Positions 1,445 through 5,602 of a stretch of DNA of 23,318 bases are shown one piece after another; the first letter of the stretch is position 1, and the number at the start of each line of letters is the position of its first letter. Position numbers and translations under genes: made by a program. The notes under the pieces are model-generated. The model worked only from the letters and a program-made list of their open reading frames with translations, did no database searches and had not been told where the DNA came from. The DNA is from an uncultured delta proteobacterium (lineage in GTDB: Bacteria > Desulfobacterota > Binatia > UBA9968), in assembly GCA_963737905.1 (NCBI GenBank), contig CAVTUQ010000024.1, positions 1-23,318 of the forward strand, read 5' to 3'.

Positions 1445-1492
1445 AAACAAGTCTTTATTCCGGTGACAAAATTTAACGAGGAGGCGAGTATC

Positions 1493-2875
1493 ATGACAAC
1501 GCAAACGTCGAAGGTGAAAGAAGAGCTCAAAGACAAGATCAAGGGGAACGTCCTGGTTCCCGAGGACAGCGGTTACAAGGAAGCTCGGCAGATATGGAAC
1601 GCCATGATCGATCGGCGGCCTGCGGTTATCGTGCAGTGCGTACAGGCTGACGATGTTCCACCAGCAATCCAGTTTGCGCGAAAAAGCGGGCTTGAACTTT
1701 CAATTCGCGGTGCCGGACACAACATCGCAGGCAATGCCCTCTGCGACAACGGCGTTATGATCGATTTTTCAAGAATGAAAAGCGTTCGCGTAGATGCCGG
1801 GAAACGGCGGGCCTATGTCGAGCCTGGGGCGACCCTCGCGAATTTCGACGAAGCGGTACAGGCGCACGGCTTGGCGACGCCAGTGGGAATCAATTCCACG
1901 ACAGGCATCGCCGGTTTAACGTTGGGCGGCGGCTTCGGGTGGCTGACTCGCAAATACGGCATGACGATCGACAATCTCGTCTCCGTCGACATGATCACGG
2001 CCGATGGCAAGAAATTGCAGGCAAGCCAAAGCGAAAATGCGGACCTTTTCTGGGCTATTCGCGGCGGCGGGGGAAATTTTGGCGTCGTCACCCAGTTTGA
2101 ATTCCAACTTTTCCCCGTGGGTCCCGAAATCGTTGCCGGCTTGATCGTTTTTCCGTTCAACCAGGCAAAGCAGATACTGACCAAATATCGTCAATTTGTA
2201 GATTCGGCACCCGAGGAGCTCAACGTTTGGGTGGTTTTGCGCAAGGCTCCGCCGTTGCCTTTTCTTCCGGAAAACGTACACGGCAAGGAAGTCGTTGTGC
2301 TGCCGATCTTTTACTGCGGCGCCGCAGCGGAAGCAGAGAAACTGATCGCTCCTCTGCGCGCTTTCGGTAATGCCCACGGCGAGCATATCGGCGCACAGCC
2401 CTATGTTGCGTGGCAAAAGGCCTTTGACCCTTTGCTGACGCCGGGCGCGAGAAACTACTGGAAGTCGCATAACTTCACGGAGCTTGCCGACGGAGCGCTG
2501 AATTCCATTATCGAGTTCGCCGGGAAGCTGCCCTCGCCACAGTGTGAGATTTTCATAGGGCTGATTGCCGGTGCGCCCAACCGCGTCGCCCCTAACGCGA
2601 TGGCTTATGGTCATAGGGACGCGAAGTTCGTGTTGAACGTGCACGGACGATGGGACGAAGCGAAGGATGACCAGAAGTGCATTGGGTGGTCACGCGAGTT
2701 TTTTAAAGCCAGCAAGCCCTACGCGTCAGCCGGCGCTTACGTAAATTTTATGACCGACGAGGAGGGCGACCGCGTCGCCGCGGCTTACGGATCCAACTAT
2801 GATCGCCTGGTGGAAACCAAGAAACGCTACGATCCGGAAAATATTTTTCACTTGAATCAGAACATCAAACCTTGA
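1493..2875 (+). CDS. FAD-binding oxidoreductase, berberine-bridge-enzyme/6-hydroxy-D-nicotine oxidase-like (FAD_binding_4 + BBE)
   Basis: Motifs RGAGHN (covalent-FAD His), TGIAGLTLGGGFGWL, DLFWAIRGGGGNFGVVT and C-terminal YVNF..AYGSNYDRL..KKRYDPENIF. Start moved from GTG 1463 to ATG 1493, which follows gaggagg. Confidence 0.93.
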   Translation: MTTQTSKVKEELKDKIKGNVLVPEDSGYKEARQIWNAMIDRRPAVIVQCVQADDVPPAIQFARKSGLELSIRGAGHNIAGNALCDNGVMIDFSRMKSVRVDAGKRRAYVEPGATLANFDEAVQAHGLATPVGINSTTGIAGLTLGGGFGWLTRKYGMTIDNLVSVDMITADGKKLQASQSENADLFWAIRGGGGNFGVVTQFEFQLFPVGPEIVAGLIVFPFNQAKQILTKYRQFVDSAPEELNVWVVLRKAPPLPFLPENVHGKEVVVLPIFYCGAAAEAEKLIAPLRAFGNAHGEHIGAQPYVAWQKAFDPLLTPGARNYWKSHNFTELADGALNSIIEFAGKLPSPQCEIFIGLIAGAPNRVAPNAMAYGHRDAKFVLNVHGRWDEAKDDQKCIGWSREFFKASKPYASAGAYVNFMTDEEGDRVAAAYGSNYDRLVETKKRYDPENIFHLNQNIKP

Positions 2876-3112: not shown

Positions 3113-3949
3113 ATGGCAACAACGTGCCCGGTCGACTTCGATGTAGATAGATTGCGCCGGCTCGTGCGTGTGGAGTACGATCGGCTGGCGCGGGAACCCA
3201 GGGGGAACTTTCATTTTCATCGAGGACTGGAGTATGCTTGCCGCATACTCCATTATGACCCCGAGGAGTTGGCAACAATCCCATCCGAATGCACCGCGTC
3301 CTTTGCCGGTGTCGGCAATCCGCACCGCATCGGTCCCATCGAACCGGGTGAAACAGTCCTTGATATCGGGTGCGGCGCCGGCATGGATCTTTTGCTGGTC
3401 GCGCGCCGCGCCGGCCCTTCGGGAAAAGCGATTGGAGTGGATATGACCCCCTCCATGCTCGAGCTGGCCAAGCGCGGCGCACTGAAGGCCGGCTTATGGG
3501 AGAACACTGAGGTTCGCCGCGGCACGGCCGAAGAGCTGCCAGTGGCGAGCGAGAGTGTCGATGTTGTTATCTCCAACGGCGTCCTCAACTTATCACCCGA
3601 CAAGGACCGCGCCTTTCGCGAGATATACAGAGTGCTGCGTCCCGGGGGCCGCTTGTATTTTGCCGATGTGGTCGTTCAAAGAGAACTCTCACTGGCAACG
3701 CGAAGCGATGTCGATCTTTGGGCAGCGTGAATTAGCGGCGCTCTGCCGGAGGTGGAGCTTTATGAAATCACCGCTGGCGTTGGTTTGACGGATGGGAAGA
3801 TCGTCGAGCGCTTCGATTGTTATGAAGGTACCTCTGCTAAAGCAAAGTTATCCAAAGACCTTCTCATTCACGGCGTGAATTTTCTCGCCCGCAAACCGTC
3901 GCGCTCAAGAGGGGCCAACGATCAGCAAACGTCGGACAGGCTAGGATAG
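3113..3949 (+). CDS. Arsenite-methyltransferase (ArsM/AS3MT)-like class I SAM methyltransferase, predicted selenoprotein (278 aa, Sec at TGA 3728-3730)
   Basis: SAM motif VLDIGCGAGMD, IGVDMT, DVVISNGVLNL, EIYRVLRPGGRL. ORFs 3113-3730 and 3752-3949 are in the same frame and are separated only by the TGA. Read-through gives DLWAA-U-ISGAL, matching the ArsM LWxxC(I/V)xGAL motif. Confidence 0.88.
3731..3777 (+). promoter_or_regulatory. Putative bacterial SECIS element
   Basis: Stem GCUCUGCC (3740-3747) / GGUGGAGC (3751-3758) has 8 pairs including 2 G-U. Its apical loop GGA starts 17 nt after the UGA. A lower stem UUAGCGG (3732-3738) / CCGCUGG (3771-3777) is also possible. Confidence 0.72.
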
Positions 3950-3954
3950 TCGGG

Positions 3955-4869
3955 ATGGAAAAATCATCCGAGAAAGAAATCACCACGGCGACTCTTACAG
4001 TTTTCGCCCTTATCGCCTTTGCCGCCAACTCGGTCTTATGCCGATTGGCGCTCGGCCAGTCGGCCATCGATCCTGCAAGTTACACGGCGGTCAGGCTGAT
4101 CACAGGAGCGATCACTTTGTGGATCATCAATCGCTTCCTCCGGGCCGGATCCTTCGGGAAGTCCGGCGGCAGCTGGATTTCTGCAGCAATGCTTTTTCTA
4201 TATGCGGCAACCTTTTCTTTCGCCTACCTAAGCTTGAGCGCGGGAACTGGCGCGTTGATTCTATTCGCAGCGGTGCAAATTACGATGATCGCGGTTGGCC
4301 TCTATGCGGGCGAAAGACCGGAGCTATTGGAGTGGCTGGGATTATTCATCGCCATTGCTGGCCTGATTTATTTAGTGTTTCCCGGGATCACCGCGCCGTC
4401 CATCCTCGGATCGCTACTCATGGCCACCGCCGGCATCGCCTGGGGTGTTTACTCTCTCAGAGGCCGAGGAGCCAGTGATCCTGTCAGTGTCACCACGGAC
4501 AATTTTCTACGCACAGTGCCCTTGGCCCTCGGTCTCATCTTGTTATGGCTATCGACGCTGACTATAACCCCGATGGGTCTTCTCTGGGCAGCCCTATCCG
4601 GATCCATCACGTCGGGAGTCGGCTATGTCCTATGGTATGCGGCGCTGCCTCGCCTGACAGCGACACGGGCGGCCACGGTCCAGCTAGCACCGGCACCGCT
4701 AGCAGCACTTGGCGGAGTTGTCGTTTTATCTGAAGCGATTAGTCTGCGTCTGGTGATATCGTCTGTGGTGATTCTGGGTGGGGTCGGCCTGGCGGCTTCC
4801 CGTCGCACGTCCGTTTCCAAGCGGCCAGAGTCTTTAACCGCTGTCGTACAGACTTCCATCAGAGACTAG
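3955..4869 (+). CDS. EamA/DMT-superfamily transporter
   Basis: 304 aa, about 10 hydrophobic segments in two repeats, with AFAANSVLCRLAL and SGVGYVLWYAALPRL motifs. It starts 5 nt after the read-through stop of the methyltransferase. Confidence 0.9.
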   Translation: MEKSSEKEITTATLTVFALIAFAANSVLCRLALGQSAIDPASYTAVRLITGAITLWIINRFLRAGSFGKSGGSWISAAMLFLYAATFSFAYLSLSAGTGALILFAAVQITMIAVGLYAGERPELLEWLGLFIAIAGLIYLVFPGITAPSILGSLLMATAGIAWGVYSLRGRGASDPVSVTTDNFLRTVPLALGLILLWLSTLTITPMGLLWAALSGSITSGVGYVLWYAALPRLTATRAATVQLAPAPLAALGGVVVLSEAISLRLVISSVVILGGVGLAASRRTSVSKRPESLTAVVQTSIRD

Positions 4870-5029: not shown

Positions 5030-5449
5030 TCATGCGAGGCGGACAACGATCACCCCCATCACTACCATGCAAACCAGTTGTGTAAAAAAGAAAATAAACC
5101 TCAGGGTTACTGCGAAGTTGGTAGGCGTGAGGGCGATATGGACGATGGTCTGGCAAACGCGGGCCGCCAGCAATAGGATCGCCAACCGATCCAGCGTAAC
5201 GCTCCGGATGCCGGTCGCGACAATGGCCACCACCACCGCCGTGTAGAGTGGCAGGTTCTCCAGACAGTTGGCATGAGCGCGCATGGCCCGCTGGTACCAA
5301 TCGCTTCCATGTGGCTCGTCGGCCGGAAATTCCTTAATCGCTGCTCGTCCCGTCAAAATCCGACTCCATCGATACCAGCCGATGGTGCTCAGAAGCGTGA
5401 TTGCAGTCCACGTCGCAAAACCCAACAAGACCCAGATCGGGATTGACAC
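5030..5449 (-). CDS. MAPEG-family membrane protein
   Basis: RAMRAHANCLENLPLY and ARVCQTIVH motifs, 4 hydrophobic helices. Likely start is GTG 5449 (MSIPIWVLLGF) rather than TTG 5479. Confidence 0.87.
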   Translation of the reverse strand: MSIPIWVLLGFATWTAITLLSTIGWYRWSRILTGRAAIKEFPADEPHGSDWYQRAMRAHANCLENLPLYTAVVVAIVATGIRSVTLDRLAILLLAARVCQTIVHIALTPTNFAVTLRFIFFFTQLVCMVVMGVIVVRLA

Positions 5450-5602
5450 GAATCCAACCCTCTGCTTGAACTGGGCCAAAATTCTTTCGCCGCACGTGCG
5501 GTGGCCATGAGACCTGGCGCTCAGGAGTCAATGCTTCGACAATCTGGACCGGTGGGTCTATGCAGACAAAATCTACTAGGAGTTCACACCTCCGGCCAAT
5601 TA

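What the first reader, a model, noticed from the sequence alone, without database searches (positions are those of the whole stretch)
3113..3949. Hidden selenoprotein: ArsM-like methyltransferase with in-frame UGA at the catalytic Cys position and a SECIS-like hairpin
Seen: the two ORFs are one frame interrupted by a single TGA, giving DLWAA-U-ISGALPE. An 8-bp hairpin with a G-initiated loop lies 17 nt downstream, and the extended ORF ends 5 nt before the next gene. Known: in ArsM/AS3MT the LWxxCxxGAL cysteine binds the metalloid, and bacterial SECIS elements lie directly 3' of the UGA with a G in the apical loop. Sec-containing ArsM-like proteins have been reported as a class, so any novelty is at subfamily level. 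Inference: a 278-aa selenoenzyme that standard gene callers would truncate.
Basis: partly seen in the sequence, partly recalled or inferred. Interest (0 to 1): 0.85.

Follow-up and report, generated by a model that had tools for sequence, protein, structure and literature searches.

The report
Selenocysteine ArsM-like methyltransferase gene
This gene encodes a 278-residue methyltransferase whose in-frame UGA is almost certainly read as selenocysteine; selenoproteins of this kind are already known, but this widespread soil subfamily is routinely annotated as a truncated 205-residue protein and is probably not a true arsenite methyltransferase.

Summary
ORF 3113-3730 stops at TGA 3728-3730 and the same frame runs on to TAG 3947-3949, giving 278 aa with DLWAA-U-ISGALPE. 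An 8-bp hairpin (3740-3758, loop GGA) follows, and the next gene starts 5 nt after the stop.

The selenoprotein reading is strongly supported.
- TGA stands at this column in 108 of 120 related gene copies from two public collections; 9 have Cys codons.
- The hairpin is kept in register in 106 of 108 TGA copies and in 0 of 9 Cys copies. It shows compensatory changes and near-frozen synonymous codons.
- dN/dS downstream of the TGA (0.05-0.19) matches upstream (0.04-0.15).
- The genome has selA, selB and a Sec-containing selD, and uses TGA as its commonest stop.

One weak point remains: no tRNA-Sec was found in this 87%-complete MAG.

U206 aligns with the As-binding Cys224 of CmArsM. The Cys72 and Cys174 equivalents are Val and Gly, the protein scores below NCBI's ArsM cut-off, and no ars genes are nearby. 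It is therefore ArsM-like, not a demonstrated ArsM.

Sec-containing ArsM proteins with a UxxG motif have been in print since 2007. This is a new member of a known kind, of moderate to low interest.

The parts
3113..3949 (+). Full coding sequence of the ArsM-like SAM methyltransferase selenoprotein (278 aa, U206; stop TAG 3947-3949)
   Evidence: Translation with TGA=U. Pfam Methyltransf_31, E 1.6e-31. Full-length homologues of 261-283 aa align to the end, including a conserved C-terminal GVNFxARKP. dN/dS of codons 207-262 is 0.05-0.19, like the upstream part.
3728..3730 (+). In-frame UGA read as selenocysteine (residue 206)
   Evidence: TGA at this column in 108 of 120 related gene copies; Cys codons in 9. 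Aligns with Cys224 of CmArsM. The second copy in the same MAG (C4) and same-genus genomes G001 and G002 also have TGA.
3740..3758 (+). Bacterial SECIS-type hairpin: 8-bp stem 3740-3747/3751-3758, apical loop GGA 3748-3750, loop 17 nt after the UGA
   Evidence: Centroid fold of -11.5 kcal/mol. Pair counts and compensatory changes. In register in 106 of 108 TGA copies and 0 of 9 Cys copies. Frozen synonymous sites. Meets the four bSECIS model constraints quoted.
3943..3946 (+). AGGA Shine-Dalgarno-like motif for the downstream gene, inside the last codons of the extended ORF
   Evidence: Read directly from the sequence; it lies 8 nt before ATG 3955. Inference: translational coupling, which needs ribosomes to read past the UGA. 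No terminator-like site lies between 3730 and 3955 on the + strand.
3955..4869 (+). EamA/DMT-family transporter gene, probably co-transcribed
   Evidence: Pfam EamA, E 2.4e-17. A homologue was found in 27 of the 159 related loci, directly downstream of the methyltransferase in most of them.
1463..2875 (+). FAD-binding/BBE-type oxidase, a conserved upstream neighbour (context only; not shown to act with the methyltransferase)
   Evidence: Pfam FAD_binding_4 plus BBE. A homologue was found in 24 of the 159 related loci. It is separated from the methyltransferase start by 237 nt.

Best explanation
Bases 3113-3949 are one gene for a 278-residue class I SAM-dependent methyltransferase of the ArsM-like group. 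Codon 206 (UGA) is recoded to selenocysteine.

Recoding (inferred from the standard bacterial mechanism). During translation, SelB carrying Sec-tRNA(Sec) binds the hairpin at 3740-3758, immediately 3' of the UGA, and inserts Sec. When selenium or the machinery is lacking, a truncated 205-residue product results.

Position of Sec206 (shown by alignment). It sits in the motif DLWAA-U-ISGAL. This is the position of Cys224 of CmArsM (Cys206 of human AS3MT by recall), which holds the metalloid next to the SAM methyl group.

Function (inferred). Sec206 captures a soft, thiol-reactive substrate through a single Se-X bond and presents it for methyl transfer from SAM. The product or a conjugate leaves through the co-transcribed EamA transporter.

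Limit on the arsenic reading. The equivalents of ArsM Cys72 and Cys174 are Val67 and Gly156 throughout this subfamily. The canonical four-cysteine arsenite cycle therefore cannot run as described, and the substrate is not established.
For: One frame interrupted by a single TGA.

Codon at the column
- Genome contigs: 32 TGA, 1 TCA, 6 TGC and 1 TGT among the 40 gene copies where my motif search found the column, in 79 loci.
- Metagenome contigs: 76 TGA, 1 TCA, 1 GGA and 1 TGC; 1 of the 80 loci did not cover the column.
- 26 of the 37 remaining, more distant genome loci show Cys; the other 11 printouts did not include the column.
- Of the 120 best database protein clusters, 63 end exactly before the column and 55 continue through it: C 38, G 7, S 4, R 3, L 2, W 1.

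Coding downstream of the TGA
- dN/dS is 0.054-0.189 downstream and 0.044-0.154 upstream, against 14 relatives.
- The C-terminal motif GVNF/INY..(R/K)K is conserved in relatives down to about 45% identity.

Hairpin
- 95.1% of cells paired, 3 pairs with changes on both sides, 0 of 500 shuffles reach the covariation score, and slid registers reach at most 52% paired.
- 106 of 108 TGA copies against 0 of 9 Cys copies keep at least 7 of 8 pairs.
- Synonymous entropy is 0.34 against 1.20 bits, with 0 of 139 windows as low.
- bSECIS model constraints are met: loop of 3-9 nt, stem of 4-16 bp, G in the first two loop positions, 16-37 nt spacing, MFE at or below -7.5 (PMC13188914 Fig. 2 legend; values).

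Sec machinery in the genome
- selD 381 bits, selA 607 bits and selB 410 bits, all over their cut-offs and clustered on contig C29.
- SelD itself has an in-frame TGA in G-U-A-A-K.
- tRNA-Sec scores 64 bits or more in 15 of 20 relatives, including same-genus G002. Without the unpublished G006 and G012 the count is 13 of 18.

No reassignment of TGA
- TGA ends 667 of 1598 long frames in the MAG and 7 of 10 long ORFs in the window.

Independent assemblies
- Contigs of three DNA runs from three studies cross 3728-3730, and no other letter is listed there. 72 further differing places were not shown.

Position
- U206 = Cys224, G156 = Cys174 and V67 = Cys72 of CmArsM.
Against: - No tRNA-Sec gene was found in this MAG. 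I tried Rfam RF01852 (best hit 46.6 bits, a tRNA-Leu), ARAGORN (44 tRNAs, none SeC), blastn and nhmmer with the relatives' tRNA-Sec, and a look at the place syntenic to the same-genus selC. The MAG is 87.5% complete and 6.7% contaminated. Same-genus G001 (93% complete) also lacks a match over the cut-off.
- The sel genes are on a different contig (C29) from the window (C24). C24 duplicates part of C4 at 94.5% identity, so two populations may be binned together.
- The hairpin alone is not significant on the single sequence.
- Part of its conservation could come from the conserved peptide ALPEAEL.
- No protein-level evidence exists here.
- The functional part (substrate, role of EamA) rests on alignment and gene order only.
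Confidence: 0.9

Rival explanations
1. Rival on function: it is a genuine arsenite methyltransferase (ArsM) that methylates As(III) for detoxification, with Sec replacing one As-binding cysteine.
For: The best solved-structure matches are arsenite methyltransferases (5EVJ E 6e-30; 4FR0/4KW7 E 2e-29), and U206 aligns with Cys224. The best NCBIfam hit is PRK11873 arsenite methyltransferase. A Sec-containing ArsM with the same UxxG motif is listed as a known selenoprotein (PMC13188914 Table 1).
Against: - Cys72 is Val67 and Cys174 is Gly156, conserved as such in both Sec and Cys forms of the subfamily. The N-terminal 46 residues do not align with ArsM, so a Cys44 equivalent is not established.
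- PMC6138428 (passages) states that all four cysteines are needed for As(III) methylation and that Cys174-Cys224 form the binding site.
- PMC5552862 (methods passage) requires at least 3 of the 4 cysteines to call an ArsM.
- The score of 217.1 is below the NF008823 cut-off of 263, whereas a canonical relative (L085, with GCG, SNC and GC motifs) scores 334.1.
- No ars genes were found among the eight neighbouring ORFs scanned.
Confidence: 0.2
2. The UGA is read through without selenocysteine (near-cognate Trp or Cys insertion), or mostly terminates, because this organism lacks tRNA-Sec.
For: selC was not found in the MAG by five approaches, nor at the syntenic place.
Against: - selA, selB and selD are intact, and SelD itself needs Sec decoding.
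- The hairpin is under RNA-level selection that tracks the TGA.
- tRNA genes are often missing from MAGs; this one is 87.5% complete with 44 tRNAs.
- 15 of 20 relatives have tRNA-Sec.
Confidence: 0.05
3. The TGA is a true stop. On this reading the gene encodes a 205-residue methyltransferase followed by a separate small ORF (GTG 3752..3949, 65 aa), or it is a pseudogene or an assembly error.
For: Standard ORF calling gives exactly these two ORFs. 63 of the 120 best database clusters are annotated as ending here.
Against: - The GTG at 3752 is GCA/GCG (Ala) in most relatives, so there is no conserved start.
- The residues directly after the TGA (I-G/S-G-A-L-P-E) are conserved and continuous with Cys-containing full-length homologues.
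- dN/dS downstream is about 0.1.
- The same TGA occurs in 108 independently assembled copies and in contigs of three DNA runs, so it is not an error or a recent nonsense mutation.
- The Pfam methyltransferase model and the ArsM structure alignments run past residue 206.
Confidence: 0.03

Closest known systems
Sec-containing arsenite methyltransferase (listed as 'Arsenite methyltransferase, NF008823, UxxG, 1 Sec' in PMC13188914 Table 1, citing Fomenko et al. 2007 Science; also named in PMC2398784)
   Same: Class I SAM methyltransferase of the ArsM group with one Sec in a U-x-x-G motif. Here it is U-I-S-G, at the position of CmArsM Cys224.
   Different: This protein scores below the NF008823 cut-off (217.1 against 263). 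It has Val and Gly in place of ArsM Cys72 and Cys174, and a different N-terminal region with a conserved FHFH(R/T)G motif. I did not see the sequence of the listed representative or the 2007 paper itself, so which cysteines that protein keeps is not checked.
NCBIfam selenoprotein models NF041537 (ArsM/AhpD), NF041536 (ArsM/DUF2284) and NF047649 (methyltransferase/UXPK-star), attributed to Haft and Tolstoy 2025 in PMC13188914 Table 1
   Same: Same UxxG Sec motif. These models align with this protein from about residue 9, so they share the N-terminal region better than PRK11873 does, which aligns only from residue 40.
   Different: Those are fusion or double/triple selenoproteins of 283-459 model positions. 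This one is a stand-alone domain with a single Sec. Its scores of 214.6, 199 and 187.5 are far below the cut-offs of 510, 575 and 460. The 2025 paper is not held in the library, so I could not check whether it mentions the stand-alone form.
CmArsM / AS3MT, the structurally solved As(III) SAM methyltransferases (PDB 4FR0, 4KW7, 5EVJ)
   Same: Homologous over residues 47-234, with the SAM-binding motif (DxGCGxG) and the (L/Y)(W/Y)xxCxxGAL segment.
   Different: About 30-35% similar only. Sec replaces Cys224, Cys72 and Cys174 are missing, there is no long C-terminal domain (278 against 377-387 residues), and there is no ars gene context.

Membership tests
Bacterial selenoprotein gene (Sec-UGA plus bSECIS) | In-frame UGA at a column where homologues have Cys | tested here: met
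   9 Cys-codon copies against 108 TGA among 120 copies. 38 Cys among the 55 database clusters that read through. 26 further distant loci with Cys.
Bacterial selenoprotein gene (Sec-UGA plus bSECIS) | bSECIS model: apical loop of 3-9 nt, upper stem of 4-16 bp, G in the first two loop positions, 16-37 nt from UGA to loop, MFE at or below -7.5 kcal/mol (PMC13188914 Fig. 2 legend) | tested here: met
   Loop GGA (3 nt), 8-bp stem, spacing 17 nt, -11.5 kcal/mol. Conserved with compensatory changes. No dedicated SECIS predictor was available. Rfam gathering search gave no match in the window.
Bacterial selenoprotein gene (Sec-UGA plus bSECIS) | selA, selB and selD in the genome | tested here: met
   TIGR00474 606.9 bits, TIGR00475 409.8 bits and TIGR00476 381.4 bits, all over their cut-offs, on contig C29. 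SelD has U in G-U-A-A-K.
Bacterial selenoprotein gene (Sec-UGA plus bSECIS) | selC (tRNA-Sec) in the genome | tested here: inconclusive
   Not found in G000. The MAG is 87.5% complete. Present in 15 of 20 relatives, including one of the two same-genus genomes.
Bacterial selenoprotein gene (Sec-UGA plus bSECIS) | Selenium in the protein at that residue | not testable with these tools
   Needs 75Se labelling or mass spectrometry.
ArsM / AS3MT arsenite methyltransferase | Class I SAM-binding methyltransferase domain | tested here: met
   Pfam Methyltransf_31 E 1.6e-31, Methyltransf_11 E 3.5e-24.
ArsM / AS3MT arsenite methyltransferase | Four conserved cysteines (CmArsM 44, 72, 174, 224); at least 3 of 4 is the criterion used in PMC5552862 | tested here: not met
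   224 = U206; 174 = G156; 72 = V67; 44 is not alignable because homology starts at residue 47-52. At most 2 of 4.
ArsM / AS3MT arsenite methyltransferase | Score over NCBIfam NF008823 cut-off (263 bits) | tested here: not met
   217.1 bits. A canonical relative, L085, reaches 334.1. Five other members of the SNG group score 182.6-223.2.
ArsM / AS3MT arsenite methyltransferase | ars operon context (arsR, arsC, arsB/acr3) | tested here: not met
   Neighbours are SnoaL-like, FAD/BBE oxidase, EamA, MAPEG, a TPP enzyme, an amidohydrolase and NMT1-like. Only Pfam on eight neighbouring ORFs was run.
ArsM / AS3MT arsenite methyltransferase | As(III) methylation activity | not testable with these tools
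   Enzyme assay needed.
NCBIfam ArsM-fusion and double selenoproteins (NF041537, NF041536, NF047649) | Score over the curated cut-off; second domain and/or second Sec | tested here: not met
   214.6 of 510, 199 of 575 and 187.5 of 460. There is a single TGA in the frame and no extra domain.

The most novel reading that the evidence does not exclude
The 'SNG' group may be a separate, soil-abundant family of single-selenocysteine (or single-cysteine) methyltransferases rather than arsenite methyltransferases. The group is marked by FHFH(R/T)G ... F(A/S)G(V/T)GNP ... ISNGV ... DLW..(U/C)I.GAL.

On this reading the lone Sec captures a chalcogen species, such as sulfane sulfur, persulfide, selenide or selenotrisulfide, as a Se-S or Se-Se adduct, and SAM methylates it.

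The hint is gene order in the sister clade (43-49% identical, also TGA). There the gene lies beside an ArsR-type HTH fused to rhodanese (6 loci) and a rhodanese fused to a metallo-beta-lactamase-fold protein (4 loci). By recall, this is the gene set of persulfide-responsive operons. These counts come from 72 neighbour ORFs of about 45 non-independent loci.

In the window's own clade the constant partner is instead an EamA exporter.
Probability: 0.15. Interest if true: 0.6.

Novelty: new member of a known kind. Interest (0 to 1): 0.3.

Why it matters
Practical value. Gene callers cut this family at the UGA: 63 of the 120 best database clusters end exactly there, and NCBI-sourced names are only 'methyltransferase domain-containing protein'. 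No NCBIfam model reaches its cut-off. Annotating the 278-residue form would correct many soil MAG annotations and selenoproteome counts.

Biological value. The family is found in MAGs labelled Binatia, Deltaproteobacteria/Thermodesulfobacteriota, Verrucomicrobiota, Gemmatimonadota, Acidobacteriota, Actinomycetota and Thermomicrobiaceae. It keeps only one of the two metalloid-binding positions of ArsM, and keeps it as Sec. Surveys that count 'arsM' by homology may therefore be counting enzymes with another substrate.

It does not open a new principle. Sec/Cys pairs at this very position of ArsM-like enzymes are already in print.

Tried and rejected
- Rfam. The gathering search of the window found nothing. 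Searches by E-value found only an ordinary tRNA in the sel-gene loci and L001, and nothing at the place syntenic to the same-genus selC.
- Relaxed ARAGORN (-ps80). It gave about 90 'SeC' calls scattered over the genome. I treated these as noise.
- Single-sequence folding. It did not distinguish the hairpin from shuffles.
- Global recoding (code 4 or 25). Rejected, because TGA is the commonest stop.
- Sequencing runs. No run holds half of the sampled words; the best share is 0.43. Contigs of three DNA runs cover the TGA with no listed difference there, but the difference table was cut (72 places not shown), so this is weak. The one RNA run covers only 3384-3550 and 4181-4333 with short contigs. 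I draw no conclusion on expression from it.
- Tree. Sec and non-Sec rows interleave, with 6 changes, at least 4 forced by starred branches. My 'Cys' group wrongly included P0031, which has Gly at the column, and L101 and L085 are long branches. I use the tree only to say that Sec and Cys forms are mixed.
- Neighbour ORFs of the sister clade. They were picked by a crude ORF rule, and many loci are near-duplicates from similar samples, so the rhodanese/ArsR counts are a lead only.
- Structure prediction and fold search. Not done. I therefore could not check that the residues after 206 supply the last strands of the methyltransferase fold; that statement would be recall only.
- Haft and Tolstoy 2025 and Fomenko et al. 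2007. Not seen. I know them only through the table and reference list of PMC13188914. Supplements were not consulted.
- In print or not. Searches found no paper describing this stand-alone SNG subfamily as a selenoprotein. That is not proof that none exists.
Full report
**What is in the sequence**

ORF 3113..3730 (205 aa) ends at TGA 3728-3730. The same frame stays open to TAG 3947-3949. Read with TGA=U it gives 278 residues with DVDLWAA-U-ISGALPEVEL.

Nine bases after the UGA, an 8-bp stem forms between 3740-3747 and 3751-3758. It has a GGA loop at 3748-3750, and the loop starts 17 nt after the UGA. This hairpin is the centroid fold at -11.5 kcal/mol.

The next gene, an EamA-family transporter, starts at 3955, 5 nt after the TAG. 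An AGGA motif sits inside the last codons of the extended ORF. No terminator-like site lies between 3730 and 3955 on the + strand.

On this one sequence the fold is not better than shuffles: z = 0.28, and 117 of 200 shuffles fold as well. The case therefore rests on comparison with relatives.

**Is the UGA conserved, and what stands there in relatives?**

A protein search gave 7990 relatives among 8000 scored candidates. Of the best 120 clusters, 55 have exactly 205 residues. In all, 63 end immediately before this column and 55 read through it: C 38, G 7, S 4, R 3, L 2, W 1. Every non-Cys residue is a single-base neighbour of TGA. That is what one expects if gene callers only deliver a full-length protein when the TGA is mutated or misread.

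DNA sampled independently of gene calling shows the real proportions.
- In 79 loci from species-representative genomes, my motif search found the column in 40 gene copies: 32 TGA, 1 TCA, 6 TGC and 1 TGT. Two further motif hits lay outside the gene and were dropped.
- Of the remaining 37 loci, 26 show Cys. The other 11 printouts did not include the column.
- In 80 metagenome loci the counts are 76 TGA, 1 TCA, 1 GGA and 1 TGC; 1 locus does not cover the column.
- Same-genus genomes G001 and G002 also have one TGA in the match. So does a second copy in this MAG (C4:73617-74450, 98% identical protein).

**Is the part after the UGA translated?**

Codons 207-262 have dN/dS of 0.054-0.189 against 14 relatives. 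Codons 1-205 give 0.044-0.154. Some pairs had saturated dS and gave no value.

The residues directly after the UGA are continuous with the Cys-containing full-length homologues. A C-terminal motif (GVNFxARKP; G(V/I)N(F/Y)..(R/K)K in the sister clade) is kept down to about 45% identity.

The alternative start GTG 3752 is GCA or GCG in most relatives. A separate small gene is therefore not supported.

**Is the hairpin a SECIS?**

In an alignment of 33 TGA-bearing sequences, 95.1% of cells are standard pairs. Three of the eight pairs show changes on both sides: C-G to U-A in 10 sequences, U-A to G-C in 3, and G-C to C-G in 1. None of 500 shuffles reaches the covariation score or the paired fraction. 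Sliding the 3' arm by 1-3 columns drops pairing to 30-52%.

Across both collections, 106 of 108 TGA copies keep at least 7 of 8 pairs in register, against 0 of 9 copies with Cys codons. One of the two exceptions, L101, has on inspection of its sequence a different, slightly shifted perfect hairpin (read; not tested further).

Among 42 distinct close-clade sequences, synonymous codon entropy in the six conserved hairpin codons is 0.34 bits, against 1.20 bits in 144 other conserved codons. None of 139 six-codon windows elsewhere is as low. The one free third position, in codon 216, lies just outside the stem. This is selection on the RNA itself, not only on the peptide.

The hairpin meets the four constraints of the published bacterial SECIS model (Fig. 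2 legend of PMC13188914, read):
- a loop of 3-9 nt;
- a stem of 4-16 bp;
- G in the first two loop positions;
- 16-37 nt between the UGA and the loop, with MFE at or below -7.5 kcal/mol.

**Can this organism decode Sec?**

selD, selB and selA lie together on contig C29 and score 381, 410 and 607 bits, all over their curated cut-offs. SelD itself contains an in-frame TGA in G-U-A-A-K, the UxxK motif listed for selenophosphate synthetase in PMC13188914 Table 1. TGA is otherwise the commonest stop, ending 667 of 1598 long frames, so the code is standard.

The gap is selC. None of these found a tRNA-Sec:
- Rfam RF01852 (best hit 46.6 bits, a tRNA-Leu);
- ARAGORN (44 tRNAs);
- blastn and nhmmer with ten tRNA-Sec genes from relatives;
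- a look at the place syntenic to the same-genus selC.

The MAG is 87.5% complete. In the relatives, 15 of 20 have a tRNA-Sec of 64-79 bits, or 13 of 18 without the unpublished G006 and G012. That includes G002 of the same genus but not G001. I read the absence as an assembly gap, but it is the main open point.

A second caveat concerns binning. The window contig C24 duplicates C4:70517-93837 at 94.5% identity over 23.4 kb. The bin probably holds two sister populations, and the sel genes could formally belong to only one of them.

**What kind of enzyme is it?**

Pfam sees a class I SAM methyltransferase domain. The nearest solved structures are arsenite methyltransferases (5EVJ, 4FR0, 4KW7; E about 1e-29, or 1e-36 with a profile), with homology from residue 47-52 to about 234.

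Counting along the printed alignment with CmArsM:
- U206 falls on Cys224.
- G156 falls on Cys174.
- V67 falls on Cys72.
- The N-terminal 46 residues, with a conserved FHFH(R/T)G motif, do not align, so no Cys44 equivalent is established.

According to passages of PMC6138428, Cys174 and Cys224 form the metalloid site, and all four cysteines are needed for the first methylation of As(III). PMC5552862 accepts an ArsM only with at least three of the four cysteines. This protein has at most two.

It scores 217.1 bits on NCBIfam NF008823 (cut-off 263). It is also far below the cut-offs of the three ArsM-type selenoprotein models. A canonical relative with all motifs (L085) scores 334.1. Five other members of the Gly156 ('SNG') group, both Sec and Cys forms, score 182.6-223.2. 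Gly156 and Val/Thr67 are conserved across the group.

There are no ars genes among the eight neighbours scanned. Conserved neighbours in the close clade are the EamA transporter (27 of 159 loci searched) and a FAD/BBE oxidase (24 loci).

So it works like an ArsM in fold and in the position of its reactive residue. It fails the membership tests for ArsM proper.

**Mechanism**

Shown:
- one reading frame;
- a conserved UGA with a co-varying hairpin;
- Cys in homologues at the same column;
- Sec machinery genes in the genome;
- alignment of residue 206 with a metalloid-binding cysteine.

Inferred from the established bacterial mechanism: SelB carrying Sec-tRNA(Sec) binds the hairpin and inserts Sec at codon 206.

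Inferred from homology and gene order: Sec206 binds a soft substrate next to the SAM methyl group, and the EamA transporter exports a product. Which substrate is unknown.

Arsenite is possible (I give it about 0.2), but the missing cysteines argue against the described cycle. In the sister clade (43-49% identical, also TGA), neighbours include ArsR-HTH/rhodanese fusions (6 loci), rhodanese/metallo-beta-lactamase fusions (4 loci) and OsmC, among 72 crudely picked neighbour ORFs from non-independent loci. This hints at reactive sulfur or selenium species. I keep that as the novel reading, at about 0.15.

**Comparison with what is known, and verdict**

A Sec-containing arsenite methyltransferase with a UxxG motif is listed among known prokaryotic selenoproteins, with Fomenko et al. 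2007 as its source. Three ArsM-type fusion or double selenoproteins are listed from Haft and Tolstoy 2025 (PMC13188914 Table 1). PMC2398784 also names the arsM selenoprotein. I read only passages of these reviews. The two primary papers were not available.

The present gene has the same motif at the same position. It is a stand-alone, single-Sec form of a divergent subfamily that no NCBIfam model captures and that databases mostly hold as 205-residue fragments. I rate it a new member of a known kind: confidence 0.9 that it is a genuine selenoprotein gene, interest 0.3.

Noticed in passing
window 1-23318 (contig C24) against G000:C4:70517-93837: The whole window is duplicated in the same MAG at 94.5% nucleotide identity over 23.4 kb. 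This is probably two co-binned sister populations (checkM-type contamination 6.7%) rather than a true duplication. Both copies keep the TGA.
   Followed up: partly
G000:C29:71024-75669 (- strand; loci L009, L013, L015): A selD-selB-selA cluster. SelD is itself a selenoprotein, with an in-frame TGA in the motif G-U-A-A-K.
   Followed up: partly
G000 whole genome; syntenic place G000:C10:104000-111000 (L112): No tRNA-Sec gene anywhere in the assembly. The relatives carry a tRNA-Sec that is more than 90% conserved among them. In same-genus G002 it lies next to a gene whose homologue is on C10 here, but no tRNA is there.
   Followed up: yes
database proteins P0003-P0023; loci L034:545, L113:1158, L132:848: Full-length close homologues carry Gly, Ser, Arg, Leu or Trp at the Sec column. 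All are single-base neighbours of TGA (seen as GGA and TCA in DNA). The Ser variant P0008 stands for 12 sequences on 5 contigs, so some of these may be real Sec-loss variants rather than errors. L113 (TCA) keeps the stem sequence; L034 (TCA) still pairs in all 8 positions but with a changed, weaker stem (-6.5 kcal/mol).
   Followed up: partly
loci L045, L055, L168, L169, L170, L178 (upstream); L160, L168, L169, L172 (downstream): In the sister Sec clade the methyltransferase is flanked by an ArsR-type HTH fused to a rhodanese domain, and by a rhodanese fused to a metallo-beta-lactamase-fold protein. By recall, this gene set resembles persulfide-responsive operons.
   Followed up: partly
relatives G008, G011, G017, G019 (two TGA) and G006, G026, G029, G031 (open frames of 549-561 aa with one TGA): Related genomes carry further ArsM-like paralogues, either with two in-frame TGAs or with long fused frames. 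These probably belong to the double or fusion selenoprotein families of NCBIfam. I did not examine them. G006 is flagged unpublished.
   Followed up: no
window 5030-5479 (- strand): A MAPEG-family (membrane glutathione-transferase-like) gene lies just downstream of the EamA gene on the opposite strand. It is conserved in only 2 of the related loci.
   Followed up: no
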